20,000 bases of DNA from an uncultured virus (IMG/VR IMGVR_UViG_3300019378_000034) (lineage: Duplodnaviria; Heunggongvirae; Uroviricota; Caudoviricetes): IMG/VR virus record IMGVR_UViG_3300019378_000034, one strand, 5' to 3'. Positions 1-17,330 of this stretch are shown here, piece by piece. Both the position numbers and the translations under genes were made by a program. The notes below the pieces were generated by a model. It worked only from the letters and a program-made list of their open reading frames with translations, was not told the DNA's origin and did not search any database. Each line of letters begins with the position of its first letter. Positions within the stretch are counted from its first letter, which is position 1.

Positions 1-32
1 GCAGCTTTTTGTGCTGCGGCAGGGGTATTCAT
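1..32 (-). CDS. Possible 5' end of a hypothetical gene running off the window (MNTPAAAQKA...)
   Basis: ATG at 30-32 lies one base after the TAA of the 34..258 gene and the frame is open to the edge. This fits the packed operon, but only 10 codons are visible. Confidence 0.4.
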   Translation of the reverse strand, partial: MNTPAAAQKA

Positions 33-33
33 A

Positions 34-258
34 TTAATTATCTAGGCCATCCCAGAAACCTCCATAAACTTTGACGACTTTCACAAGATAGCCGTCGTCA
101 ATTATGTCTCCTTTAGACTTCTTTTCCTTTTTAGTATAAGCGAAAGAATTAAGAATGTAGCCTTGTTTTCTTGCTTCTTCCTTGAAGTCTTCATTCATTT
201 GCTTTGCTTCTTCCTCAGATTCCGCACGGTATTCTGCGGTGACTTTTAATAATCTCAT
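34..258 (-). CDS. Hypothetical phage protein, 74 aa
   Basis: ATGA overlap with the stop of the upstream gene, AAGGAG upstream, ends TAA. Confidence 0.8.
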   Translation of the reverse strand: MRLLKVTAEYRAESEEEAKQMNEDFKEEARKQGYILNSFAYTKKEKKSKGDIIDDGYLVKVVKVYGGFWDGLDN

Positions 259-2353: not shown

Positions 2354-4602
2354 TTATGTTTCACCCTATATTTTACTTCATCTTGCTTGCCACGATTGAA
2401 AGCGGTGGTATAATTACCAGTTAAATATCCAGTAACTCTACGTAATTGTTGGATATGTTCACTGCCACACTCGGGACAATGATCATTAAACTCATCGCAA
2501 TATCCGCACTCTAAACAAGTATCATTAGGAACATTTACTGCGAAATAGGGAATATCTTTGTCCATTGCATAGTTAACTAAAGTTTCAAGAGCTTCTAGAT
2601 TATTTTTAATACCACTATCTAACTCAACATAGGTAATACAACCAGCAGAAGAATAACCAGTTAACTGTGATTCAATATCAATCTTTTCAAAGGGATTCAT
2701 TTCCTTCCATACAGGAACGTGCATGGAGTTAGTAAAGAATTCCTTGTCACTAACATTCTTGATAACACCATAACGCGCCTTGAACTTTTTTAGAGCAGTA
2801 TGGCAAAGATTTTCTGCAGGAGTGTAATAAACACCAAAATTTAGTTTATATTCTTCTTTAAATTCAGCACAACGTTTCTTGAACAAAGCTTCGATTCTTT
2901 TTGCTAATTCCATACCCTTTTCTTCAGTATGGTCGCATCCAATAAGAATCTGTAAAGCTTCAGCCAATCCTAGCTGACCCATTGCAAGAGTACCATGCTT
3001 TAAGGCAGAACGAATACCTTCTTCTGGTACATAGCCAGCCATTAGACCATTCTCATACATAAAACGAGCGGAGGCAGGATTCTGAGAGCAAATCCAATTA
3101 AAACGTTCAATTAACATATCTTTGGCTTCGTGGATTTTTTCATTTAGAATGGCTAAGAAAATATCTTCAACACTTTCGCCCTGCCCCTCAGCTAACCACT
3201 CTTCCTTAGCCATCATGGCCAAAGTAGGCAAAATAATGGTTACTGGACAGATATTTCCTCGTCCATCCTTTCGCTGACCGAGGCCGTTAATATCGTATCC
3301 ATTGGCAGTTCTACATCCCATCGTACTGAAATAGGTACAGGGGTCATTGATGTCGTATCCATCATTGCCAGTCCAGTCAACATTTGCGTAGTTGGGATAC
3401 AATCTTTGGGCGGTTGAGCGTAATGCGAGTTTAAATAAATCGTAATTTGGGTCTTCGGGTTCACGGTTTACTCCTTTCATACACTGGAAGATTCCACATG
3501 GGAAAATAGATGTTTTGTGTAATTTACCAATACCTTTAATAGAAACATCAAGTAAAGCCTTGGTAATCATTCTACCTTCTGGCAAAGTACAGGTTCCATA
3601 GTTTATAGATGTAAATGGAAGCTGATTACCACTACGTGATTGTAAGGTGTTAAGATTGTGGTACATAGCTTCAACTGCTTGATATACTTCACGTTCAGTC
3701 ATTTCAAGAGCATAGGTCCAAGCTTGTGGATGAAGGTCTTTAAATTCGGTATTATTGAAGCAAATGACACCATTTTCACAACCTTCTTTGGTATTTTTTA
3801 ACCATCTGTCAAAACGTTCTAGTTTATATTCAGATTTTCCTTCACAATATCTCATGCCATCTTTTAAATGTTTGGTAAAGCTCTTTCTAACATAAGGAAC
3901 CATAGTCCAATCTAAGTGAGTTGCACTAACTCCGCCAAACTGCTGTAAGGATTGCAACTGGAAGATAACAGCAACTAACTGGAAAGCTGTACTTATGGAT
4001 TGAGCTGGACGTACATCAGTCTGTCTTGTATTGAAACCTTTAGCCAATAAATCATCAAAGGGAATAGATAAGCAATTATGAGAACCAACGGCATAATGGT
4101 CTAAATCATGAATATAAATCATGTTATTCAAGTGATTTTCTTTAGCCATAGGACTTACAATATAATCAAGCGCATATTTACGTGCAACTGCGCTATTCAT
4201 TTCACCCATACGGCCACCAAATGAATGTTCATCGACATTTGCATTTTGATTCTGAACATTTGCTGCACTTAATTTTTCACCAATGGTGTCCATCAATTCC
4301 TTGTAATTATGGCGAGCCATTTCACGCTTATAGCGATAACGAATATAAGCTTTCGCCAAATCTGGTTTGGGACCATTGATTAGATTCCATTCTACTAAAT
4401 CTTGAATCTCTTCAACTGTAATACATTCTACAGTATGATATTCAAAATAGTTTTCAATACTTGTAGCAACATTTTCAGAAATATACTTAGAGTAAATATT
4501 ACCATCTACTTCAAGTAACGCCTTATTGATTGCACAAATAATTTTATTTCTGTCATAAGGAACTTGAGTTCCATCTCTTTTTACTACAATTACGTTAGTC
4601 AT
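2350..4602 (-). CDS. nrdD: Class III anaerobic ribonucleoside-triphosphate reductase with N-terminal ATP cone
   Basis: ATP cone (VVKRDG), IYIHDLD, TPAENL, FTNSMHVP, Zn site CLEC..CPEC and glycyl-radical loop RRVTGY. Start set at ATG 4602 (MTNVIVVK) with GGAGG at 4609-4613. Confidence 0.96.
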   Translation of the reverse strand: MTNVIVVKRDGTQVPYDRNKIICAINKALLEVDGNIYSKYISENVATSIENYFEYHTVECITVEEIQDLVEWNLINGPKPDLAKAYIRYRYKREMARHNYKELMDTIGEKLSAANVQNQNANVDEHSFGGRMGEMNSAVARKYALDYIVSPMAKENHLNNMIYIHDLDHYAVGSHNCLSIPFDDLLAKGFNTRQTDVRPAQSISTAFQLVAVIFQLQSLQQFGGVSATHLDWTMVPYVRKSFTKHLKDGMRYCEGKSEYKLERFDRWLKNTKEGCENGVICFNNTEFKDLHPQAWTYALEMTEREVYQAVEAMYHNLNTLQSRSGNQLPFTSINYGTCTLPEGRMITKALLDVSIKGIGKLHKTSIFPCGIFQCMKGVNREPEDPNYDLFKLALRSTAQRLYPNYANVDWTGNDGYDINDPCTYFSTMGCRTANGYDINGLGQRKDGRGNICPVTIILPTLAMMAKEEWLAEGQGESVEDIFLAILNEKIHEAKDMLIERFNWICSQNPASARFMYENGLMAGYVPEEGIRSALKHGTLAMGQLGLAEALQILIGCDHTEEKGMELAKRIEALFKKRCAEFKEEYKLNFGVYYTPAENLCHTALKKFKARYGVIKNVSDKEFFTNSMHVPVWKEMNPFEKIDIESQLTGYSSAGCITYVELDSGIKNNLEALETLVNYAMDKDIPYFAVNVPNDTCLECGYCDEFNDHCPECGSEHIQQLRRVTGYLTGNYTTAFNRGKQDEVKYRVKHK

Positions 4603-4792
4603 TAACATCCTCCAAATGATAGCAGAATTCACATTGTCCCTCTACATAATGATGATTACATTTCTTCTGCAAAGATTCAATTTCATTATTAATTCTGACT
4701 ACTTCTGGATTTAATGTAAACATACCTGGCACAGTAGCTTCTTCAAGCTACCAGCGCAATTCATCAATTTTTGCTTTAATCTCTTTTGACAT
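4595..4792 (-). CDS. Small 65-aa protein with C-terminal CxH...CxxC, containing an in-frame TAG (codon 15); absent from the ORF track
   Basis: GGAGGG SD then MSKEIKAKIDELRW[TAG 4748-4750]LEEATVPGMFTLNPEVVRINNEIESLQKKCNHHYVEGQCEFCYHLEDVND-TAA. It exactly fills the gap and overlaps the nrdD start. Confidence 0.8.
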
Positions 4793-4794
4793 TT

Positions 4795-5925
4795 TCAACC
4801 CTCCATCTTGTTGATATAAAATTCATAAAAATCTTCAAAGAGTTCAGGTTTCTCTTCTCTGACAAAAGCAAACAGTTCTCGTATTTCTTGTCTGGTCATG
4901 GCTTTAGCATAATAGGTTGGCAAGTCATCATAAGTAGCTCGCGCGAAGTCAAATAAAGTGTCCTCTCCAATACGCTTAAAATAAGTTGATTGTGGAAGAC
5001 ACCGCATACTATTATGATAAAAATTGAACAAATCTAAGACTTTTTCCCATCTACTGTCGATAAAGAAATTTTCCTCATATTTAAGTGAAAAGAAAACCCT
5101 ATAGCTACGTGCTTTTACAACCTGATGAAAAATCCGAACAATATATTTATCAAGAAACTCCTGCTGATTAGCAGAAGAAGCAGTGACATAATAATCTAAC
5201 TGTTTGTAAACGGCCTTTTCTCTTATATAGCCGACGAAATCATCGAAAGCATCGTCATCAATAACTCCGTCATATCTAAGAGAATAAAATGTACTATTTG
5301 GGCGCAATGAAATCCAATTCAATAAGTCTTGTCCTTGAGTAACAGTAGGAGGAAATTTCATTCCCACTCTTGTTGCCCAGCCATCAGTTCTGGCGCGAGC
5401 CAACAACTTTTTAACTTCTTCAAAACTGCCTTCGATTTTTCCTAAATCAAAGTCATGTAACATCAAGTTACGAGCAGTTTTTAGAAACTTAAATTGTCTT
5501 GGGTAATCTTCCCAAATTGTCTTCCCATCTAATGACAATCGGCAATGCTCAGCTTCCATCATGTTTTGAAAAATTTTCTTCTGATCGCGCCCTTTAGAAG
5601 CCATAATAGTCTTTTCCATATTTTCATATATAGAAGTGTCTGGATGCATAATTTCTATTTCTCTTGGTAGTGGTGCATATATTCCATCTGTAAATGCATA
5701 ACCACCGTACTCAAGATTGGGAATATTTTCAAGTCCCATTATAAAGTTTCCATCATCATAGTCTTTTCTTAAAAAGAATTTCTGATGTCGCTCTGGCGTG
5801 AAGTAGGGAGATAGTACAACTACCTCCCTCTTTTTCTTGTAGTAAGCAGAGAGTTTCATCAGTTCTAGATTGAATGGAACTAAAGTATAAGTTGCCATGT
5901 CCTAATCATATAAACCAATACTCAT
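4795..5925 (-). CDS. 376-aa protein resembling phage radical-SAM-family proteins but lacking CxxxCxxC; in-frame TAG at codon 8
   Basis: ATG 5923-5925 overlaps the dnaE TGA (ATGA) with a GGAGG SD. It reads MSIGLYD[TAG 5902-5904]DMATYTLVPFNLELMKLSAYYK. The family call is from recalled motif resemblance. Confidence 0.75.
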
Positions 5926-8900
5926 TCTGCTGCCTCCATTCTTTCGCCCTTGGTGTATAACCAACCATCTTCGGTAACTTCGGTAATAAGCTCAACCAGA
6001 TGATAAGGAGTCTTATTATATTTCTTTGCTAAGAAACCATCAGACTGCTTAATACCAGTTACAATAATCTTATTACCACGAGCCAGCCAAGACTTTTCAA
6101 TAACGTGCTTCTTTCCATCTGCACCTTTTTCGGAAATTTGCTTGTCATAATGAGAAAATACTTGGCCAAAAATCTTAACAGTTACAACTCCGCTTGTAGT
6201 TAGAAGTGTAACAGTTTTCTTGTTCTTATCTTTATCCAAAATTGTACCTGCAATTCGATACAATTTGAAAATAGGGATTTGGCGCCCTTTAATTGGAATG
6301 ATTCTTTCAACTACAGGAGTTTCCGGAATCTTGTCAAAATCAGTAATGTCATAAGCTCTTGTATTTACATGGGCCAATTCATGCTCGTGAGAATAGAAAG
6401 ATACTGCATCCATTTCCCACTTACTCAAACTACCTTGGCAATACTTATTCCACATATCGCTTGTCAAGCGATTATTTACTTCCTCAAGCAAAGTTGCAGA
6501 ATTTTCTTTTACCCAAGGACGAATCTTATCCATATGGCTCTGATAAATCTTATCCCAAACTGTTTGCTTGATTAAGAAACCGCTTTCAGACATTTCACTA
6601 GGAATTAAATTATCCATATCAAAATGCTTCTCATAGAAATTAAAAGCGATATTATCAAGAGCATAATAAGTTTCCCACTTTAACTTCTTTACATACTTGT
6701 TAAAGTTATAAACTCTACGCTGCATATCATACTTATCTGGAATCAAACCAAAATCAATTAACATCTTCATATTCTGAAGAGTAATTCGCTGCTTTGTATC
6801 AGAGACACTATTGATGTACTGTCGCATGATTTGCACGCGGTCTCCAAAGCTATCAAAAGCTCCGGACTTGATAAGATTAATGACTTGAGCCTTGTTGATT
6901 TTAACTCTAGAGGTAAGGTCGGCCACAGAAGTGTAAGGACGTCCATCCATAATTGCCTTGACGAGGTCTTCACCAACTTTTGTAATTCCGCTAAGTCCAT
7001 ATCTAATTGTATTACTCTCTACATCGGGATAGAAGGTAAAACTGGACTTGTTGATATCAGGTGGGGCCACATCAACTCCGCTTGACTTGATTTTACCAAT
7101 AGCCGTTGCGATTTTACCATAATTGGCGGATTTTGTTTTCTTTTTCTTTTTAGTAGCTGCTGATACTGTCTCTTCATCTTCGTCTTCGTTTTCATCTTCA
7201 TCCTCTTCCGCGCCGAAATCTTCAAAAGAAGAATATTCGACTTCTTCATATACATTATCTACTTCTTCTACTTCTTCTTCGTCGTCGTTTTCAGCGCCAC
7301 CACTATCAGAAATCAAACACGCACAATTCCAGAACATGATGGGATAATTATATCCTAAGTTCATTTCTTGTAGTGCAATCAAAGAATAAGCAAGAGTGTG
7401 AGAAGCATTAAAACCATAACCACGAGAAGTTGCAACTAGAACATTCCATACATAATTGCATAGATTTTTACTCAAGCCTTTCTTTTCTACAGTTTCAAAA
7501 TATTCCTTCTGCAACTCTTCATAAGCCGCAGGATTCTTTTTAGCGATTGACTTACGCAGTTTATCTGCCCAAGTCAGGTCAAAGCCACCACATTCAGGCA
7601 TCTGCACCAACTGCATAAACTTTTCCTGGGACTCAGAAATACCATAAGATAGCTTAACAACTGGCTCAAGCAATTTCTGCTCTTCTTTGGTTAGCCCATA
7701 CTTATCCATTTCATCATACCATAACTGAATATCATTCTTAAAACGAGCGAACTTATTCAGCGGCTGCTCAGCGCCTTTCTCCTGCGCCATCAATCGAATA
7801 ACAGAGTTAAGAACCGCAAGGTCATCAACACTTTGAGGATGGGTTAAAGCAATACCCTGAATACCAGATTGCTTTTCCATCTGGAACAAAGAATGAATCT
7901 CATGGTTCCAAACCATCTGCCACATCTGAGGTGCTTCACGCACCAAATTATAAATACCGATAACACTTTCATAAGTGTCTCTCAAAGTTTCTTTCTTTTC
8001 AATGTAATTCTGTTCACAAAGCAAATCAAGACAAATATGAATTTTATCCATTGCCTCGACAGAAAGTAAGTCGTACTTAATCAGAGAACAATCTTCACAA
8101 TCATGCAGGTCAAACTGAGTCATAATATCACCATTAGGTGCGCGCATTAAAGCGGTGGAATTTTCAAAGTCCTCATCAACAAAGATAACGCCACCTGCGT
8201 GTTCACCTAAACGACAAACCAGACCTTCAATCTTTTTTGCAACCTGCCAAACTTCGGGATAGTTTTCTGTCATTTCATATACAAACTGCTTATTTGGCGC
8301 GAAGTCACTTTCTTCATCGCCATAGAATGTTTGGTCGAGAGTTCTTAACATACCACGGTCAGAAGCAATCATAGAAGCTAGATACTGTGCAATATCAACA
8401 TCAATACCCAAACCACGGCAAGCAGTCAAAACCGCAGACTTAGATTTTTCAGTACCAAAGGTTGCAACGTTAGCAACTCTATCTTCCCCATAGACTTTTC
8501 TTAGATGGTCCAAAACCTGCTTACGGCGCCCGCCTTCAATATCAACGTCAACGTCAAGAACAGATACACGAGCAGGATTAAGAAAACGCCAGGCAAAAGT
8601 TTTGGTCGTTTCCCATTGAGGATTAATTTGGGTAATTCCCAAAAGGTATAGCAGTATGAAACCAACACCAGAACCACGGCCACAGCCTACAAGAGTTCCT
8701 GCATTCCAACACTCCTCAATAATCTTTTGTAGATTTAGATAATATGCAGACCAATGAGTTTTGTTGACTTCGGAAGAAATCCAAGTCATTTCAAGACATT
8801 CATTGATTGCGTCATAGATTTCTTGAGTTTGTAATTTCTTGTCTTTGGACAGAGCTAAAGAAATAGCATCACATAAATGATGGTCACCTACATAATCAGA

Positions 8901-9911
8901 CCCCATAAAGGTTTTCATATAAGGAATCTTATCAAACCATTTATAAGGTGCAGGTGCGCCAAAAGGTTCACTCCAAGGAAGCTGAGGAATTTTTAGAGGC
9001 TTCATCAAGCTATAATCTTCACACATTTCTTTAATATGATGAATATTATTATATGCTTCAGTTAATTCTTCTCTGGTCAAACCCATAAAAGATTCAAGCT
9101 CTTCAGTATTCATCATATAAGTAGTTGCATAGAAATCATCAACTTCTCGATCACCATTCTGAGAGTTCAGATATGCCTTATGAATGGGTTTATCTTCTTT
9201 CTTCAAATAATGACTATCAGTTGTAATGATATAGGGGAAATGGTAAGTATTCGCAATATCAATCAGCGCTCTATTAACATAACGCTGGTCACGGTTTGCT
9301 GCAGGTTGAAGTTCTAGATAAAAATTACCAGGTCCAAAAATCCATTCCATCTGCTCGCACCAAGCGATGATTCTTTCATATAGTTCTTGACTACCAGAAT
9401 CTCTATGTCTCAGAAGCTGAGTAGGGAGGGCGCCACCAAGACAAGCAGTAGTTCCAATAACATGACCTCGATTTTCACCAATGACATCGATTAAATCTTG
9501 ATAGTAAGTGGGAACTCTACGCATACCTCGTGCCATATAACTGCGATGCCAAGCTCTAGTAGAAATCTCACGAATTTGTTTATGACCAATTGCATCCTTT
9601 GCTAAAAGAACAAAGTGATAATATCTATCATACTCACGATTGAAATTGTTTGCATTTAGTCCATTACGACAAAGATAAATCTCATTACCAAGAATTACCT
9701 TAAAGTCTGGATGTTCTTTTTTTATTTTTTTGTAAATCTTTTCGACCTTAACTGCGTTGCATACAGCTTCATGGTCTGTTACTGCCACAACTTCATGACC
9801 AAGTTCTACGGCATATTCAATCAAATCTTTTTCTTTGATGATACAGTCACGCAAACGTAAGTTAGAATATTGGGTGTGATTATGTAGTGAACCAGGAAAA
9901 TTTGTCACCAC
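5922..9911 (-). CDS. dnaE: DNA polymerase III alpha subunit (family C, DnaE-type), 1329 aa
   Basis: PHP domain (HNHTQYS, TDH, GNE, DSH), GRGSG, catalytic DVDVD, HAGGV, KYDLL, YGFNASH, C-terminal OB region. GTG start with GGAGG SD. Confidence 0.95.
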   Translation of the reverse strand: MVTNFPGSLHNHTQYSNLRLRDCIIKEKDLIEYAVELGHEVVAVTDHEAVCNAVKVEKIYKKIKKEHPDFKVILGNEIYLCRNGLNANNFNREYDRYYHFVLLAKDAIGHKQIREISTRAWHRSYMARGMRRVPTYYQDLIDVIGENRGHVIGTTACLGGALPTQLLRHRDSGSQELYERIIAWCEQMEWIFGPGNFYLELQPAANRDQRYVNRALIDIANTYHFPYIITTDSHYLKKEDKPIHKAYLNSQNGDREVDDFYATTYMMNTEELESFMGLTREELTEAYNNIHHIKEMCEDYSLMKPLKIPQLPWSEPFGAPAPYKWFDKIPYMKTFMGSDYVGDHHLCDAISLALSKDKKLQTQEIYDAINECLEMTWISSEVNKTHWSAYYLNLQKIIEECWNAGTLVGCGRGSGVGFILLYLLGITQINPQWETTKTFAWRFLNPARVSVLDVDVDIEGGRRKQVLDHLRKVYGEDRVANVATFGTEKSKSAVLTACRGLGIDVDIAQYLASMIASDRGMLRTLDQTFYGDEESDFAPNKQFVYEMTENYPEVWQVAKKIEGLVCRLGEHAGGVIFVDEDFENSTALMRAPNGDIMTQFDLHDCEDCSLIKYDLLSVEAMDKIHICLDLLCEQNYIEKKETLRDTYESVIGIYNLVREAPQMWQMVWNHEIHSLFQMEKQSGIQGIALTHPQSVDDLAVLNSVIRLMAQEKGAEQPLNKFARFKNDIQLWYDEMDKYGLTKEEQKLLEPVVKLSYGISESQEKFMQLVQMPECGGFDLTWADKLRKSIAKKNPAAYEELQKEYFETVEKKGLSKNLCNYVWNVLVATSRGYGFNASHTLAYSLIALQEMNLGYNYPIMFWNCACLISDSGGAENDDEEEVEEVDNVYEEVEYSSFEDFGAEEDEDENEDEDEETVSAATKKKKKTKSANYGKIATAIGKIKSSGVDVAPPDINKSSFTFYPDVESNTIRYGLSGITKVGEDLVKAIMDGRPYTSVADLTSRVKINKAQVINLIKSGAFDSFGDRVQIMRQYINSVSDTKQRITLQNMKMLIDFGLIPDKYDMQRRVYNFNKYVKKLKWETYYALDNIAFNFYEKHFDMDNLIPSEMSESGFLIKQTVWDKIYQSHMDKIRPWVKENSATLLEEVNNRLTSDMWNKYCQGSLSKWEMDAVSFYSHEHELAHVNTRAYDITDFDKIPETPVVERIIPIKGRQIPIFKLYRIAGTILDKDKNKKTVTLLTTSGVVTVKIFGQVFSHYDKQISEKGADGKKHVIEKSWLARGNKIIVTGIKQSDGFLAKKYNKTPYHLVELITEVTEDGWLYTKGERMEAAE

Positions 9912-9940
9912 GCATCTACCTCCTCTCAGTTTATATAAAT

Positions 9941-9969
9941 ATTATATCATAAATTTATATTTTTGTCAA
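9941..9969 (-). promoter_or_regulatory. Perfect-consensus sigma70/sigmaA promoter upstream of dnaE
   Basis: TTGACA(9969-9964)-17 nt-TATAAT(9946-9941), with extended -10 TGn. Confidence 0.88.
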
Positions 9970-10253
9970 TTATTGAGCAGTTCGTCTAAACCATGGTTAA
10001 TTATTCTTTGCTTAATAGTTGGCATGAGAACTTCATAGAAAGTTTTTTCATCAAGTTGTTTATCCAAGATTACGTGTGCATAAGCTGCTCCACGTCTAGA
10101 CTCGGGAAATCCACTTCGAATATGGAATATGAATAGCTTATTACGTATTTCAGTATATTCTTTTGTCTGGATAGTAGTATCAACTTCCATCATATTGATA
10201 ATTGTGTGATACCATCTAGTAATTCTATCTGTTATAATCAATATCTTAATCAT
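9966..10253 (-). CDS. Hypothetical protein, 95 aa
   Basis: GGGAG SD, directly abuts the stop of the upstream small ORF, ends TGA. Confidence 0.75.
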   Translation of the reverse strand: MIKILIITDRITRWYHTIINMMEVDTTIQTKEYTEIRNKLFIFHIRSGFPESRRGAAYAHVILDKQLDEKTFYEVLMPTIKQRIINHGLDELLNN

Positions 10254-10406
10254 TCAGACTCCCATTATTTTAACGGCTCGTTCTATATGCCAAATCGTAT
10301 AGAGATACCACATTCCATCTTTATCTGCAATAAGAGGGATAATAGGAAAGGGGCTTTCTGCTATTACTTTAGGTATATCATATATGTAATTAGAATCCAA
10401 GCGCAT
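10254..10406 (-). CDS. Small hypothetical protein, 50 aa (not in ORF track)
   Basis: GAGGTG/AAGGA upstream of ATG 10404-10406. MRLDSNYIYDIPKVIAESPFPIIPLIADKDGMWYLYTIWHIERAVKIMGV-TGA fills the gap and abuts the next ATG. Confidence 0.65.
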   Translation of the reverse strand: MRLDSNYIYDIPKVIAESPFPIIPLIADKDGMWYLYTIWHIERAVKIMGV

Positions 10407-12147
10407 TATCCTTCACCTCAATATCTTCAATAAAAATCTGAGGAGTTACTCTTCCGCCCCATTCATTCAAATTGGCACGACCAACAACTTCTATCTTCAT
10501 GTCGGGATGCTTATTTAATTCTTCAATCAAATCTTTTGCATGGAACTTCATATAAGCGATACCAAATTTCTCAAATTTTACAGTATCCTTATTTTTACCC
10601 ATAATTTGAACATCACTTGCAGAAATGTTAATATCTGTTACATGGATCAAAGGTTCTGGATTTTGCTGCCCCCAAATGCCACCATGTGCCCCAATATCAT
10701 GAATAATATCTGCTAAATCATCATCAGCGGCAATTCTATCAAAATTTACATCATAGCAGTTTTCACCAAAATCAATTCCAATAAGAGCCTCATTTGCCCA
10801 CTTGTGGAAATCAGTTAAATGAGAATTAGGGATAGAACAACCAGCCGCATTGTCATGACCTTGGACATATTCAAACATTCCGCTTTCAGTTAAGAAATCT
10901 TTAAAAGAAACCAATTCACTTTGATTCAATCCGCGCATAGACCCACGATTAAAGCCTTGCTCATTCAGTCGTGCAACAATAGTGGGACGCTTGAATTTGG
11001 CGCTTAACTTCATAGCTAGTAGACCATTTAATTCCGAGGGGAATGTATCTTCTTCGTCCAGACGAACAAACAAAATTCTGTTTTCCAACAAATCATACTT
11101 ATGAATTTTGATTTCAGTTCTATCCATAGCGGTTTCCAAAGATTTATTTTGACGATTGCGCGCGTTGCTACATTCACGTGCGGCTTCAACACCAGCTCTT
11201 TCCATAGTTCCCTTCGCTCCACGCTTGCCACTAGGAATCATTTTATCGCCATCTAAGAAAGCTTCAAACAGTCGACACTTTTCATCCATGGTGCCAACAC
11301 GAATCATCGCATTGACCAGAGGGACAATGTAAAAAGCTACGCTAATGGGATTCATAGCGTCAATCAGCTGTTGTTTGCTAGGACTCATCGCACCAGTAAT
11401 AGAATAAGCCTGCTTCTCCATGAGCGCCCATAGCAACTTGTTATTAATATTCTTTAATCCTTCCTTTACGATATAACGATTTTCCAACTCAAGCATAGAA
11501 CCCATATCGCCAATGATACCCCAGGCTGCTAAGTCCATATACTTGTCAGCAAAAGACTTGCCCAACTTTAAATCAAGATAACGGCAGAACTGATATACAA
11601 CTCCTGCGCCGGTCAATTCCTTGTTCTTATATCGAGGAGAAAGCTGGTTGTTAATAACTACGGCATTTTCACTTAGTTCTGTATCTGTAATGTGATGGTC
11701 AAGAACTAAAACAGAAGTACCCAAGTCACTCAATTGTTCATGATAAACATAATCATTACTAGAAGAGTCGGGTAGAATGATTAACCCGTAATGTTCTCCG
11801 CCCTCTGTTAAATTCTTAATATGATCTTGCAGGCCATGCTATTTACCTTCATGTAAAATATAATCAATCTTGCAATCGGGCATTAAATCTCTCAGATAAT
11901 TATACATGATAGTAGCAGAAGTAAAACCATCATTATCAGAGTCAACAACAATCAGAATTTTCTCATCCTGCGCAAGTACTCCTATGAGCAGGTTGGCGCC
12001 TCGCTCTACATTTTCTAAATCAGTGGGAGGTTGTAGGAACTCTCTGCCAGGATTGTAATAATCTTCTGGATTTTCAATACCACGAGCCTTCAAAAGTGAA
12101 TCTACATAATCTTTCTTAAAGTTTGTGTTAATCAGTTTGGTCTTCAT
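10390..12147 (-). CDS. recJ: RecJ-like DHH-family ssDNA exonuclease, 585 aa, single gene with in-frame TAG at codon 103
   Basis: Track ORFs 11839..12147 and 10390..11733 share a frame and are separated only by TAG at 11839-11841. The joined protein has DSDNDG, HEGK*HGL, ILPDS, LDHH, GIIGDM, RGSMRG and QGH in RecJ order. Confidence 0.9.
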
Positions 12148-13196
12148 TTAACAATTACCCTCTTATCTAATAGTTTCAAGAAAATTTCTTCTCCTTTATC
12201 TGTAGGAGAATCCTTTAAATCAAGCAAACCTTCCCTATCATAGATAAAAGAGAAGTTGCAATAATTTTTATATTTTTGACAGATATTCCATAATTTGTTG
12301 AAATACTTATCCTCTCCAGGAAGCTCTTCTTTATCAAAGCACAAAACAATATGCGCTGGATGGCAATGCCTCATAAGAATGTTTAATTGATATTTATTAA
12401 AATTACTTCCACATACTGCCGCAGAACAATTTGGTATTGAGAAGCCTTCCATCTGTAAAACAGACTTTTCACTTTCAAATAAAAAACAAATTCCGCTTTC
12501 TTTAATATCAAATTCTGTCATATGTAAGCCATAAAGGTTCATAGAAAGTGGATGTTTGTACCAAGTATTTTCAATGCGTATTGGTGCATACTTACCAACA
12601 TTTTCTACTTCCCACTCATTCAATGCGCGACCTCTAATTCCAACAAGACGGCCATCAATATCATAATGAGGAATAATAATTTTATTCTGAGAAATAGAAT
12701 AGGAAATATCAAAATCATCCATAGCTTCTTTTGTTATACCATCGTTCAACCATTCTGGAGGATAATATTTAACAAAACAATCTAACACATTTGGCGAATA
12801 TTCTGGAAGTTGAACTTCTTTTCGTACGACAGAATAGCGCTCTTTTAAACTCTTATAAACTGGTTTAATAAATCCTTCTTTTTGCTTAAAAGAAGAACAA
12901 TTACAAACCACTTCATAGATATCTTGATACCAGTCGTATTCTATCTGCCTTTCTTCGTAATAAGTACGAAGAAATTTAAAAATAGACATACTTCCACATT
13001 CTGTATAACAAACGAACATCTTGTTCTTTTTGTAAAAATATAATTTCATTGACGCTTCACTAGATTCCAAATTATGACAGATGGTGGGAAAGATTACAAA
13101 ATCTTCCCTATCATCGTACCTGTCGGCGCCAAGTTCTGTCATCAAATGAATTATAGAATCGGTATTTAAATTAGAGATTATCTCAGCATAATCCAT
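12144..13196 (-). CDS. Phage DNA primase (DnaG-like: Zn-binding domain plus TOPRIM)
   Basis: CHN...CYTEC Zn ligands, IIIPH...GIRGR, LYGL, FESEKS and LCFD TOPRIM-like motifs. Adjacent to the helicase. Confidence 0.85.
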   Translation of the reverse strand: MDYAEIISNLNTDSIIHLMTELGADRYDDREDFVIFPTICHNLESSEASMKLYFYKKNKMFVCYTECGSMSIFKFLRTYYEERQIEYDWYQDIYEVVCNCSSFKQKEGFIKPVYKSLKERYSVVRKEVQLPEYSPNVLDCFVKYYPPEWLNDGITKEAMDDFDISYSISQNKIIIPHYDIDGRLVGIRGRALNEWEVENVGKYAPIRIENTWYKHPLSMNLYGLHMTEFDIKESGICFLFESEKSVLQMEGFSIPNCSAAVCGSNFNKYQLNILMRHCHPAHIVLCFDKEELPGEDKYFNKLWNICQKYKNYCNFSFIYDREGLLDLKDSPTDKGEEIFLKLLDKRVIVK

Positions 13197-14742
13197 TTAG
13201 CCAATCAACCTTTCTTTTAATTTCAATCAGTTCATCGCTTTCAAAATCACTGATATTATATTCATCACCAGTACTAAAATCATTGATAACAACCAAACGA
13301 GAATCAGTTAAAAACAAATCATCTCGCTTCATTGTACCCAAATCAACAATAGACCAAATACGTACTTGTGTCCACTCACCACTTCGAACTTTAAAAATAT
13401 CAGTTACCAGATTTGGCTTACCATGAACAGCAATAATTGGTTCGAGAGTTTCTAACTCTTCCTTAGTAGGACGAGCCATAATCGCACCATTATCTGCTTT
13501 GTTAATTGTTGAACGACCACCGGCCAGAGAAGATTCATTCCTAATATTTATGTTATTATCCACATTTGCATTAACCTGTGTAGAAGTAAAAACACAGACA
13601 TCCAATTCAACAGCCAAATCCTTTAAGGCGGTTGCCATCATCAATAGAACTTCATCATTACGGACACCAAAACCACGGAACTCGTTAAGAAGCGCAGGTC
13701 CAATAAAGATGTAGTCATAAAATACATAACCAATATCATGCAACAAAACTTTTTCGCGTACTTTGGTTTTTACTAAATCAATAGTTGGATTAGGAATACG
13801 AATCAGAATAAAATTATCTGCATAATCCTTCATAATCTGTTTACCTTGCGCGATTCGTTTCTTTTCTTCTTCAGTAAAACGTCCGTACTTAAACTTAGAT
13901 TCATTTATATCAGTTAAGTATGCCAAAATCATTTTTTTAATCTGAATATCAGTCTGCTCTGTGATAATAAACAAAATTCGCTGATTGTTGCCTTTTTGTT
14001 CCCAAGAAGCAGTTTTGCTATTGTATCTTATAGGAAAAGCAAGAATACAAGCGTCTGCTACAGCATTTCTTGTTTTACCAGTACCACTCGCACCAGAGCG
14101 AATGGTCAGACAAGAACGCTGTGCTCCATCAATAATTCTACTGAAAATAAAACCTTGAATTGGAAGTCCAACACTTCCTTCTGCGCCGAAAGATTCGACA
14201 AGCTCGTCAATATCATCACCGATATTCCATTCTTGAACTTCTTCAGTGCCCGCATAATCAGATTCCAAAACCAACAATCTCTTCTTAACCGCAGTAATAA
14301 TATCGCTGATGGTTAGTTCTTCAAACCGCTGATTAATTTCCATTGCATTCGCCGCAGTTAAATCTTCTTGATAAAATTCACTTACGGGAAAGTTCTGTTT
14401 CTTTAAATCCCTGAGCAAATTCAGTTTCTTTAGTTTGGTATAATAATAAGGAAAGTTCTCTATATTAGAGAACTCTTCAATATCTTGCAAATACTCAAGA
14501 CCATTCTGCTGTTCATATAATTTCTTTGCCGCATCATTAGCTTCAAGATAACTTTCAATATCTAAAGCCGTAATCTTTTGCGCGCCACTACGCCATAAAC
14601 CATTTATAGCATTGAAAATATATTTCTCGAACTTAGTTGAAAAGTCTGAGATAGACAAGCTATACTTATCAACCTCACTTAAAAACTGAGGGTGTTTCAT
14701 CAGAGAACCAAGAACCTGCTGAATGGTTCCCTTGTTTGTCAT
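13183..14742 (-). CDS. Replicative DnaB-like (SF4) helicase
   Basis: Walker A GASGTGKT, FIITEQ, Walker B VFYDYI, LKDLAVELD..TSTQVN, KAD and KVR motifs. Confidence 0.88.
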   Translation of the reverse strand: MTNKGTIQQVLGSLMKHPQFLSEVDKYSLSISDFSTKFEKYIFNAINGLWRSGAQKITALDIESYLEANDAAKKLYEQQNGLEYLQDIEEFSNIENFPYYYTKLKKLNLLRDLKKQNFPVSEFYQEDLTAANAMEINQRFEELTISDIITAVKKRLLVLESDYAGTEEVQEWNIGDDIDELVESFGAEGSVGLPIQGFIFSRIIDGAQRSCLTIRSGASGTGKTRNAVADACILAFPIRYNSKTASWEQKGNNQRILFIITEQTDIQIKKMILAYLTDINESKFKYGRFTEEEKKRIAQGKQIMKDYADNFILIRIPNPTIDLVKTKVREKVLLHDIGYVFYDYIFIGPALLNEFRGFGVRNDEVLLMMATALKDLAVELDVCVFTSTQVNANVDNNINIRNESSLAGGRSTINKADNGAIMARPTKEELETLEPIIAVHGKPNLVTDIFKVRSGEWTQVRIWSIVDLGTMKRDDLFLTDSRLVVINDFSTGDEYNISDFESDELIEIKRKVDWLNGLC

Positions 14743-15326
14743 TCATCGTCCTCCATATCTACTTCTGCTAACATCTCTGCCGCAGTTTTTACTTGCCGCT
14801 TTTTTCTCTTCATCTTTACTTCAATAATATTTTGGTTCTGAAATTGACGAATCTGTTCTTCAATTGCGGCAACGATATTCTTATCTCTTTGGTTTCTTTC
14901 TCCCCAATAAGCTGTTGCATCTTCATATATATGTGGAACAATTCCAATGCCGCCTTCGCTCTTGTCGACTAAGCCACCACATATTTCATAAAAATATCTA
15001 ACAGTAAAATAGATACCTTTGGGTGTACGTCCATCCCTTTCTACAAATTTCTTCCACTGAGAATTAAATCTTTTATAATCAAGACTAATTTTTAAATCTC
15101 TTTTAAGATAATCTTGTACAGCAGTTTTCCATACAACTTCATCTGCCTCAAGTTCTATTCCCTCTTTTCCAATTTGTCCTTTTTTCTTAGCAAAATCTTC
15201 ATAGCATTTTTTATGGTAATAGAATCTTTTAACTGGTTGTACCCAATAAACTCCTTCTACTAAATCTGGGTCCAATCTGTTAAATTTTTGTTTACAAACT
15301 CGACACTCAACCATAGCTTTTGCCAT
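14739..15326 (-). CDS. Hypothetical replication-associated protein with N-terminal CxxC...HxxC Zn finger
   Basis: CRVC...HKKC motif. First gene after a promoter, ATGA-coupled to the helicase. Start set at ATG 15326 with AAGGTGG upstream. Confidence 0.75.
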   Translation of the reverse strand: MAKAMVECRVCKQKFNRLDPDLVEGVYWVQPVKRFYYHKKCYEDFAKKKGQIGKEGIELEADEVVWKTAVQDYLKRDLKISLDYKRFNSQWKKFVERDGRTPKGIYFTVRYFYEICGGLVDKSEGGIGIVPHIYEDATAYWGERNQRDKNIVAAIEEQIRQFQNQNIIEVKMKRKKRQVKTAAEMLAEVDMEDDE

Positions 15327-15365
15327 TAATCGCACCACCTTTTCTAGCCTTATTTTCCTACATAT

Positions 15366-15394
15366 ATTATATCATATTTTTTGTAAAAAGTCAA
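15366..15394 (-). promoter_or_regulatory. sigma70/sigmaA-type promoter with extended -10
   Basis: TTGACT(15394-15389)-17 nt-TATAAT(15371-15366). Confidence 0.82.
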
Positions 15395-15399
15395 ATTAG

Positions 15400-15428
15400 A
15401 AAAAGCCACCCTTGAAACCAAGGGTGGC
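15400..15428 (-). terminator. Intrinsic terminator after the AAA ATPase gene
   Basis: 10-bp perfect stem GCCACCCTTG-gttt-CAAGGGTGGC followed by TTTTT on the minus strand. Confidence 0.88.
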
Positions 15429-15441
15429 GTAATTAAAAGGA

Positions 15442-16404
15442 TTAGTCCTTTAACATATCTCTCATATCAAGAACAACAAGGTTAAACAAATCAACCTGGT
15501 CTTCTGTGATTTCAGACAGCTTCATGGGACGACCAAAAATAATCTCAACCTTTTTCAAGATAACAGGAGCATTTTCGGGGTCTTTCTCCACAAGGACAGT
15601 CCACAATTCAGAGGCTTCCGCGCGAATTGCTTTATAATCCAATTTCTCAAATGTATCAAGAGGTGCTGTATCAGTAACAACTGCGCCATTTTCTTGCTCT
15701 TTATCGATTGCTTGGCCCAGAGCCTCTAAGAACTCATTATAGCCAAATGGAATTCGAGGAGCAAGATATTTATATCTGGAACCTGCAACAATGGTGGGAG
15801 TAGAACGAGTCTGAATCCAACGATGACTTTCACCATGCTCATCCCAAGTCTGAGTGATGACACCGATAATATCAACCAGGCCATTAACAATCTTTAAGCA
15901 ACGATTGTTTAAGTCAGGCTTATATCCAGTGATTTCACCATTCTCGTCAGAACTTTCCTTTAAGTGGCAAGTCATAATTAGGCCATAACCCATCATAGTA
16001 ATCTTGCGGAGCGCGCTATCAAATTCCTTGGATAGAGCAGCATAACCGCCACCATAAGGGATGTCACCAATCTTTTGCACACCATTCTGGGCGCAAATAA
16101 ATTGTTCACACAGGTCGTAAGCAATTGCAACTGTATCAACACAGATGGTTGAGAACTTGGCTTTTGCTTCTGGTTTTTCCAACTGACGAAGAACTAACTT
16201 GAATGTACTCCAAGTATCAATCTTCTGAATCATGGCGCCAGGTCTTGCATTGGTACCAATCTCAAATGCCAACACTAAAGCATCAGGCGCCATAGTACAA
16301 AATTCAGTTTTACCAATCTTAGGTGCGCCAGCCAGGAGCAGGTATTTCGAGCGTAAATCTCTCGAAATAACCTACGGCTGAATGGCTAAAATATCAATAG
16401 CCAT
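15442..16404 (-). CDS. AAA_24/Sak4-like P-loop ATPase (putative phage recombinase), 320 aa, in-frame TAG at codon 11
   Basis: GGAGGT SD at 16412-16417 then MAIDILAIQP[TAG 16372-16374]VISRDLRSKYLLLAGAPKIGKT. The Walker A lies upstream of the track start at 16293. Walker B is ICVDT. Adjacent to the SSB-like gene. Confidence 0.85.
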
Positions 16405-16418
16405 TTACGTTACCTCCA

Positions 16419-17330
16419 TTAGAAGCCCAGGTCAGCCATAGACTTCTTTGCGGCCTTAGGAGCAGTCTTGCTTTCCTTAGCCTTCTGCTTTGCCTTCAGT
16501 TCAGCCAAACGAGCCTGACGATCTTCCAAAGCGCTATGGATTTCATCCATATCAAAGGCAAAGTCACCCTCCAAAGGAGTCTGAGAACCACCAGTGATAA
16601 TCAGCTCGCTGACAGAAATAGTCTTTCTCTCAATACGAGGCTCACCGAAGTCGACCTCAACCATCTTCTCCTCAGTCTTAGAGGTAAAGTTCAGCTTACC
16701 ATTAATCTTAACGGTATCGCCCTGCTCCCAGTAAGAAGAAACAGCATCAATAACGTTAGGACTGGTAGCGAAGAAATCAATTACATCAACGATACCGCCG
16801 TACTGAGGCATGATACCACGAATCTTATAGCGATTGGGAATTTCCACGCCATCCTTATCGGTTTCATAACCCATGCTACCAACTGCAAAAATAACAGAGA
16901 AAGTAGCTTCAGGGGTGAACTTACTCAAATCGGTAATCTTGGTTACGAAAGAAGCATTGATACGGGGGTAAGAGTTCAGATTACCAGTCTGGCCGTAATA
17001 TTCATTCATACGAATCTGCGCGCCAGTAATACGAACACGGTCTGCGGCATCGATACCAACTGCAGCGATACTCTTATACTCGTTCATTACGCGCTCAATA
17101 GAAGCGTAAGCAGGATTAGCAGTACCCTTATTAGTCAGCTTATTGGCAAACATATATACAGGGATATCCAGTTCGGATTCCTCGCCATTCAGCATCTGAG
17201 TAACACGAACCTTGATGGAACCGCCAATCTTTTCGACAGACTTACCATCTTTCATATAACTACCTGTCTCCAGGTCAATCTCGGACAGAATACCCTCAAT
17301 CTTTACAGAATTTTCCTTAGACTCTAGCAT
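16419..17330 (-). CDS. Putative single-stranded DNA-binding protein (two OB-fold-like halves)
   Basis: N-terminal NSVKIEGIL, GDTVKINGKL, charged tail ending DLGF, located beside a Sak4-like ATPase. AAGGAG SD. Confidence 0.6.
   Translation of the reverse strand: MLESKENSVKIEGILSEIDLETGSYMKDGKSVEKIGGSIKVRVTQMLNGEESELDIPVYMFANKLTNKGTANPAYASIERVMNEYKSIAAVGIDAADRVRITGAQIRMNEYYGQTGNLNSYPRINASFVTKITDLSKFTPEATFSVIFAVGSMGYETDKDGVEIPNRYKIRGIMPQYGGIVDVIDFFATSPNVIDAVSSYWEQGDTVKINGKLNFTSKTEEKMVEVDFGEPRIERKTISVSELIITGGSQTPLEGDFAFDMDEIHSALEDRQARLAELKAKQKAKESKTAPKAAKKSMADLGF

What the first reader, a model, noticed from the sequence alone, without database searches (positions are those of the whole stretch)
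4595..16404. Amber stop codon reassignment (TAG most likely Gln, code 15) in this phage
Seen: four genes each have exactly one in-frame TAG (4748-4750, 5902-5904, 11839-11841, 16372-16374). In each case reading through it restores the frame: the Walker A of the ATPase, contiguous DHH motifs of RecJ, ATGA coupling to dnaE, or a gene filling the gap before nrdD. All 19 stops of genes called here are TAA or TGA. The flanking contexts differ (CCG/GTT, AAA/CAT, GAT/GAC, TGG/CTT), which argues against a local readthrough signal. Established: TAG-to-Gln recoding is known in Lak, some crAss-like and other gut phages. Inference: this genome uses code 15 or a phage-encoded amber suppressor.
Basis: partly seen in the sequence, partly recalled or inferred. 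Interest (0 to 1): 0.88.

Follow-up and report, generated by a model that had tools for sequence, protein, structure and literature searches.

The report
Gut phage reads TAG as glutamine
This animal-gut phage uses the stop codon TAG to mean glutamine across its genome and carries its own tRNA to read it, which is a real but already known trick of several gut phage groups.

Summary
Confirmed. All four TAGs are in-frame codons on the minus strand, and a fifth is likely at window 42-44. On the 56.9-kb contig, coding density rises from 0.80 (table 11) to 0.97 (table 15), with no gain for table 4. At 94 TAG sites, standard-code and code-4 homologs give Gln a log-odds of 68 against -4 for Glu. A near-identical strain has CAG at the RecJ site. 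A 122.5-kb record that is 99.998% identical over 54.7 kb carries a tRNA(CUA) with a Gln-type acceptor (U1·C72, G73). No release factor or synthetase was found. TAG makes up 33% of Gln codons in morphogenesis genes, 3% in the replication arm, and none in the major capsid or tail tube. Relatives mix codes 11, 15 and 4, as in the published Agate clade; membership of that clade could not be tested by sequence. It is not Phassvirus (TerL 37%). Other windows of this scan reported amber-suppressor phages on other DNA. Verdict: a new member of a known kind.

The parts
15442..16404 (-). Sak4-like AAA ATPase, 320 aa; TAG at codon 11 (16372-16374)
   Evidence: Pfam AAA_24 E 1.8e-36 read through vs 3.5e-29 truncated; phrog_124 Sak4-like; TAG also in L038 and L006, Thr/Ser in distant relatives
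10390..12147 (-). RecJ-like exonuclease (SPbeta YorK-like), 585 aa; TAG at codon 103 (11839-11841)
   Evidence: DHH complete only on read-through; the ten nearest non-identical relatives (58-92% identity) have CAG or CAA here; TAG/CAG strain polymorphism
4795..5925 (-). 376-aa conserved protein of unknown function, coupled to dnaE by ATGA; TAG at codon 8 (5902-5904)
   Evidence: RBS and ATGA overlap; homologs align across the site, mostly Ala; no Pfam, NCBIfam or PHROG match
4595..4792 (-). 65-aa conserved protein with C-x-H...C-x-x-C motif upstream of nrdD; TAG at codon 15 (4748-4750)
   Evidence: 15 tblastn homologs, all with sense codons at the site
1..50 (-). Start of the dUTPase gene (runs out of the window); probable fifth TAG at 42-44, codon 3
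   Evidence: GGAGG 7 nt before the ATG; the G006 homolog aligns from residue 4; Pfam dUTPase; alternative ATG downstream not excluded
5922..9908 (-). DNA polymerase III alpha (DnaE): TAG-free contrast gene, 0 of 50 Gln codons
   Evidence: also 0 TAG in the best-matching ORF of six other code-15 records

Best explanation
The phage has reassigned UAG to glutamine (table 15) across its genome and ends genes only at UAA or UGA. SHOWN: recoding, Gln as residue, and a tRNA(CUA) gene in a near-identical longer record. INFERRED: (1) The tRNA is made early, since it sits third in a 36-tRNA island behind a near-consensus sigma-70-type promoter. (2) It is charged by a host glutaminyl-tRNA synthetase, because it has U35, G73 and an unpaired 1:72 position, while the indirect amidotransferase route relies on U1-A72. 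(3) It competes with host RF1, so UAG works as a slow, risky Gln codon: nearly absent from early replication genes, absent from the highest-copy virion proteins, and common in low-copy late genes, homing endonucleases and a late sigma-like factor. The four window TAGs are best read as near-neutral CAG-to-TAG drift that is tolerated once suppression is on, not as dedicated switches. The genome-wide gradient probably does hold late genes off until the tRNA has built up.
For: Coding density 0.80 to 0.97 under table 15 and 0.78 under table 4; no gain in three standard-code relatives. 58 TAGs in a 2840-codon tape-measure frame. Gln log-odds 68.1 vs Glu -3.9 at 94 sites, 1000 of 1000 bootstraps, controls right in 2950 of 2950 draws. 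14 of 18 conserved TAG columns are Gln. 45 of 52 TAG exchanges with close relatives are with CAG/CAA (pairs not independent). TAG/CAG polymorphism in RecJ. 54 of 55 table-11 calls ending in TAG lie inside table-15 genes, and the other is out of frame in the tape-measure gene; a TAG one codon before a stop aligns to Gln in three relatives. tRNA(CUA) at G001:15442-15516; none in 6 of 6 near-complete code-11/code-4 relatives. Promoter match 11 of 12 upstream. TAG share of Gln codons: replication arm 7/228, morphogenesis 149/447 (p 1e-22), capsid + tail tube + 192-aa protein 0/23, endonucleases and RT 47/142; 0/203 for the abundant virion proteins over eight records. Identity rules from PMC9976931.
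Against: No protein or RNA data, so Gln insertion is inferred from homology. The tRNA lies in G001, not in the window's own contig (0 tRNAs). No tRNA(CUA) was found in six partial code-15 records (G007-G010, G037, G038), one of them 89% complete. The host is unidentified, so its having GlnRS is untested. No release factor in 15 of 15 records searched and no GluRS/GlnRS in 5 of 5, so how 58 UAGs are passed against RF1 is unexplained: 90% read-through per codon would give 0.2% full-length tape measure. TAG use correlates with CAA-rich genes (Spearman -0.62 against CAG share, n=71), so part of the gradient may be AT-biased mutation under weak codon selection rather than regulation.
Confidence: 0.9

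Rival explanations
1. TAG is a sense codon, but for another residue (Glu from an un-amidated Glu-tRNA, or Lys, Leu, Trp or Pyl).
For: U1·C72 should block amidotransferase recognition. The anticodon loop matches the phage's tRNA-Trp loop but for one base. ARAGORN labels it Pyl. Other notes of this scan report Glu, Leu or Ala readers in gut phages.
Against: Log-odds Q 68.1, E -3.9, K -7.6; 14 Gln vs 1 Glu in conserved columns; exchanges with CAG/CAA 45 of 52 vs GAA 1. The Pyl label is only ARAGORN's name for a CUA anticodon.
Confidence: 0.03
2. The host itself uses TAG=Gln or supplies a suppressor, and the phage simply follows.
For: Host unknown; several partial code-15 relatives show no tRNA(CUA).
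Against: A recoded host would not explain TAG avoidance in replication genes, the phage's own tRNA, or codes 11, 15 and 4 interleaving on the terminase tree. Gene neighbours point to Clostridia (16 of 20 hits), which use table 11 (established knowledge).
Confidence: 0.04
3. The TAGs are sequencing errors, nonsense mutations in a decaying phage, or local read-through signals.
For: Within the window alone there are only 4-5 sites, two of them near gene starts.
Against: 241 in-frame TAGs in 51 of 157 genes; the same TAGs in other assemblies; no TAA or TGA breaks in the same frames; flanking bases resemble those of CAA and CAG.
Confidence: 0.01
4. Recoding is real, but the distribution is purely mutational (C-to-T drift, purged only from highly expressed genes) and has no timing function. 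Compatible with the best explanation except for its last step.
For: TAG tracks CAA-rich genes; the RecJ TAG is polymorphic; the capsid and tail tube are late genes yet TAG-free.
Against: The replication arm has many CAA codons (106) but only 7 TAG, against 219 CAA and 149 TAG in morphogenesis genes. Code-4 relative G004 shows the same layout for TGA: DnaE 0 of 20, tape measure 34 of 38.
Confidence: 0.35

Closest known systems
Agate clade of recoded gut phages (Borges et al., bioRxiv 10.1101/2021.08.26.457843; parts 1-4 of 6 and all 'Agate' passages read)
   Same: About 127-kb animal-gut phages whose close relatives use different codes; structural genes recoded, replication genes mostly not; recoded homing endonucleases; suppressor tRNA.
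   Different: No RF2 here (the paper found it in two TAG-recoded Agate phages). No Agate sequence was at hand, so membership is not shown. Replication genes here carry a few TAGs.
phAss-1 / proposed Phassvirus and its SPbeta-related gut group (PMC10607447; parts 1-3 of 6 read; OQ749652)
   Same: About 135-kb siphovirus-like, TAG=Gln, 36 tRNAs, no synthetase, predicted Clostridia host. One phAss-1 suppressor has the same U1·C72/G73 acceptor, and its capsid, tail tube and DnaE are also TAG-free.
   Different: TerL 37% and other core proteins 24-39% identical; one suppressor instead of three; not the same genus.
Code-15 crAss-like and Lak phages (PMC9523058, PMC7886860 and bioRxiv 10.64898/2026.08.21.746148: passages read)
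   Same: TAG=Gln, validated by proteomics in crAss-like phages; mostly late genes; a TAG-free major capsid gene and a 'Glu-tRNA(Gln) amidotransferase subunit' were noted in one crAss-like phage.
   Different: Unrelated lineage with Bacteroidota hosts.
SPbeta-like Bacillus phages and Geobacillus virus E3
   Same: Closest cultured relatives: RecJ 35-37%, TerL 40-43%; tail tube folds like that of phage SPR.
   Different: Annotated in the standard code; distant.

Membership tests
TAG-to-Gln (table 15) recoded phages | Coding density gain under table 15 (over 10% for contigs under 100 kb, over 5% above) | tested here: met
   0.80 to 0.97 for G000; 0.68 to 0.84 for G001 (own simple caller, not Prodigal)
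TAG-to-Gln (table 15) recoded phages | In-frame TAG aligns with Gln in homologs | tested here: met
TAG-to-Gln (table 15) recoded phages | Correct-length genes without fusions; TAG not used as a stop | tested here: met
TAG-to-Gln (table 15) recoded phages | Suppressor tRNA(CUA) (found in about 40% of published genomes) | tested here: met
   G001:15442-15516, in a record 99.998% identical over 54.7 kb; absent from the window's own contig
TAG-to-Gln (table 15) recoded phages | Gln detected in peptides at TAG | not testable with these tools
   no proteomics
Agate clade | Terminase falls in the Agate clade of the published tree | not testable with these tools
   no Agate reference sequence available; bioRxiv supplements closed; journal version not held
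Agate clade | Genome size near 127 kb | tested here: met
   G001 at least 122.5 kb plus 2.2 kb seen only in G000; relatives with terminal repeats 115-140 kb
Agate clade | Close relatives use different codes (11, 15, 4) | tested here: met
   77-row terminase tree needs 6 label changes (quick tree)
Agate clade | Firmicutes host | tested here: inconclusive
   16 of 20 hits of one gene are Clostridia; terminase and NadR hits are mixed and probably mis-binned
Agate clade | GC skew of bidirectional replication | tested here: inconclusive
   skew reverses more than twice and follows gene strand
Phassvirus (proposed genus) | Over 80% nucleotide identity and synteny with phAss-1 | tested here: not met
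   TerL 37%, capsid 34%, DnaE 33% amino-acid identity

The most novel reading that the evidence does not exclude
This lineage reads up to 58-72 UAGs per gene with one tRNA and no release factor or synthetase of its own, so it may carry an unrecognised small factor that disables host RF1 or boosts charging of the suppressor. It may also use amber codons as a two-step timer: the sigma-like factor ahead of the packaging genes has TAGs in 6 of 6 code-15 records where it was found (8 of 19 Gln codons here), and the reverse transcriptase of a diversity-generating retroelement is 12 of 15 TAG, which would confine tail-protein diversification to late infection.
Probability: 0.2. Interest if true: 0.7.

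Novelty: new member of a known kind. Interest (0 to 1): 0.33.

Why it matters
It is a well-supported further example of a published phenomenon, and it matters for annotation: under table 11 the tail and head modules fall to pieces. The lineage is a useful natural comparison, because codes 11, 15 and 4 occur among phages with 63-74% identical terminases and a TAG/CAG polymorphism exists between near-identical strains. That makes two open questions testable: whether recoded stops time late genes or merely drift in, and how such phages out-compete host RF1 without a release factor of their own.

Tried and rejected
tRNA search of the window and its contig: 0 at default settings; relaxed intron-allowing hits lay inside genes and were discarded. 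TGA recoding: no density gain. Phage release factor (PF00472): 0 of 15 records. GluRS/GlnRS (PF00749): 0 of 5; no synthetase among 108 proteins scanned with Pfam. Stand-alone YqeY as the code-change factor: G001:48926-49393 is a YqeY homolog (PDB 8xjg E 2.9e-8; phrog_1460), found in 3 of 6 code-15 and 0 of 17 other records, but missing from code-15 G028 (100% complete), G029 (98%) and G037 (89%), so it is not required; YqeY also occurs in papers on other phages (listing only). No other gene specific to code-15 relatives stood out (output partly cut). Origin of the tRNA from tRNA-Trp or tRNA-Gln: pairwise scores uninformative. A pattern search for CUA tRNAs missed G001's own and is not used. 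No RNA holder listed among sequencing runs. Host not resolved. The careful terminase tree did not finish; the quick tree is shown, and monophyly of the code-15 group was not formally tested. No earlier scan notes on this genome or look-alike DNA. Paper searches. Supplements of the bioRxiv Agate paper could not be seen and may list this lineage.
Full report
Observation. All four coordinates hold TAG on the minus strand, in frame. Translation through them gives a 320-aa ATPase, a 585-aa RecJ, a 376-aa protein and a 65-aa protein. Pfam supports the first two directly: AAA_24 gains the P-loop segment (E 3.5e-29 to 1.8e-36) and DHH becomes one full-profile match instead of two sub-threshold fragments. 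The 376-aa gene begins at an ATGA overlap with dnaE behind a GGAGG, and the 65-aa gene has 15 homologs with sense codons at the site. The 19 genes that end in the window end at TAA or TGA. A probable fifth TAG is codon 3 of dUTPase, window 42-44. Contigs of run X7 are identical across all four sites, so these are not assembly errors.

Genome-wide test. The window is the replication arm of a 56,860-base phage contig. With my own simple gene caller, coding density is 0.80 under table 11, 0.97 under table 15 and 0.78 under table 4; standard-code relatives G002, G003 and G005 show no gain, and G004 gains only under table 4. The tape-measure gene holds 58 TAGs in 2840 codons. G001, a 122,525-base record, matches the contig with one mismatch in 54,703 bases and supplies most of the rest of the genome. 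Over 157 called genes of G000 and G001 there are 241 in-frame TAGs in 51 genes. No true TAG stop was found: 54 of 55 well-scoring table-11 calls ending in TAG lie inside table-15 genes, the last is out of frame within the tape-measure gene, and a TAG one codon before a stop aligns to Gln in three relatives. G002, G003 and G005 end 35 of 121, 24 of 115 and 26 of 106 well-scoring genes at TAG.

Which residue. Using only homologs from code-11 and code-4 relatives, 94 of the 241 TAG sites had coverage. Summed log-odds were Gln 68.1, Glu -3.9, Lys -7.6; Gln won 1000 of 1000 bootstraps, and the method called known codons correctly in 2950 of 2950 draws. With a stricter filter (74 sites), 14 of 18 conserved columns were Gln. 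In close code-15 relatives TAG exchanges with CAG or CAA in 45 of 52 differing pairs (sites recur across relatives, so the pairs are not independent). At the RecJ site the ten nearest non-identical relatives have CAG or CAA, and a contig of run X11 with only 4 differences in 1901 bases has CAG. The other three window sites are variable columns (Thr/Ser, Ala, mixed), so they show read-through but not the residue. I ran the formal test because other notes of this scan describe Glu-, Leu- and Ala-reading gut phages.

Machinery. G001 carries 36 tRNAs, one with anticodon CUA at 15442-15516 (Rfam 49 bits). Its acceptor is U1·C72, G2-C71, G3-C70, G73. A review (PMC9976931, passages read) states that U35, the 1-72 and 3-70 pairs and the discriminator define Gln identity for GlnRS, that amber suppressors with a weakened 1-72 pair insert Gln, and that amidotransferases rely on U1-A72. 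I therefore infer charging by a host GlnRS; the host is not identified, though 16 of 20 genome hits of one accessory gene are Clostridia. CUA tRNAs with weak or mismatched 1:72 and G73 also occur in G006, G028, G029 and phAss-1; none occurs in six near-complete code-11 or code-4 relatives, and none was seen in six partial code-15 records. A promoter-like site matching 11 of 12 consensus bases lies about 440 bases before the first tRNA of the island (8 sites found against 4.3 in shuffles, so a hint only). No release factor was found in 15 records and no GluRS/GlnRS in 5; G001 is 82% complete, but G006, G028 and G029 are 98-100%. A stand-alone YqeY homolog is present but absent from three near-complete code-15 relatives.

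Distribution. TAG makes up 7 of 228 Gln codons in the replication arm, 149 of 447 in morphogenesis genes (Fisher p 1e-22), 47 of 142 in homing endonucleases and the reverse transcriptase, and 0 of 23 in the 350-aa, 286-aa and 192-aa virion genes. Structure predictions identify the 350-aa protein as an HK97-fold capsid and the 286-aa protein as an SPR-like tail tube; the role of the 192-aa protein is inferred from position. These genes have 0 TAG in 203 Gln codons across eight code-15 records, and DnaE has none in seven. Code-4 G004 repeats the layout for TGA. A TAG-free capsid gene was also noted in a crAss-like phage (bioRxiv 10.64898/2026.08.21.746148, passages). So the rule is not simply 'late genes are recoded': UAG is avoided both where a gene is needed early and where it is needed in bulk. 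TAG share also falls with CAG share (Spearman -0.62), so mutation bias and weak codon selection contribute. The sigma-factor-like gene before the packaging module (phrog_5767) has TAGs in all six code-15 records where it was found, but 0 TGA of 2 in G004. With 58 UAGs, per-codon read-through must be about 95% to give 5% full-length tape measure, so RF1 must be strongly out-competed late in infection; how is unexplained.

Comparison. TAG-to-Gln recoding in gut phages is published and validated by proteomics (PMC9523058, passages; PMC7886860, passages). The size, animal-gut habitat (sheep and feces runs), layout and interleaving of codes 11, 15 and 4 on the terminase tree match the Agate clade of Borges et al., but no Agate sequence was available, so I claim resemblance, not membership. 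It belongs to the wider SPbeta-related group that includes phAss-1 but not to Phassvirus (TerL 37%).

Verdict. A real, well-supported new member of a known kind. Confidence that TAG is read as Gln is about 0.9 overall (higher for recoding as such); charging by host GlnRS about 0.65; a timing function for the gradient about 0.6. Interest 0.33.

Noticed in passing
G001:1-2331 (L073): Diversity-generating retroelement: variable repeat 117-217, template repeat 808-908, 19 of 19 mismatches at template adenines; Rfam RT-2 RNA at 930-1151. Its reverse transcriptase has 12 of 15 Gln codons as TAG (binomial p 6e-7 against the genome rate).
   Followed up: partly
G001:21328-21999, 26039-26550, 16311-16437 (L074, L073): ROOL, GOLLD and drum RNAs sit inside the tRNA island of the same phage.
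   Followed up: no
G001:48926-49393 (L075:8926-9393): Stand-alone YqeY homolog next to NAD-salvage genes; present in some code-15 relatives, not required.
   Followed up: yes
G006:95354-95443 and phAss-1 62445-62532: Amber tRNAs with an extra arm containing CUG; the G001 tRNA lacks this arm.
   Followed up: partly
G004 (L100-L106): A relative with a 70%-identical terminase recodes TGA to Trp instead, and ARAGORN found no UCA suppressor among its 6 tRNAs.
   Followed up: partly
G000:21245-21973 (L001:1746-2474): The RuvC-like resolvase carries recoded stops in 6 of 6 code-15 records where found and 9 of 10 Trp codons as TGA in G004, although it lies in the replication arm.
   Followed up: partly
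G001:18489-18577: tRNA with a Trp anticodon and a long variable arm.
   Followed up: no
G000:22363-24806: Cluster of small, nearly TAG-free genes, one Gly-rich and one Met/Gln/Asn-rich, with homologs in Clostridia genomes, between the tail module and the replication arm.
   Followed up: no
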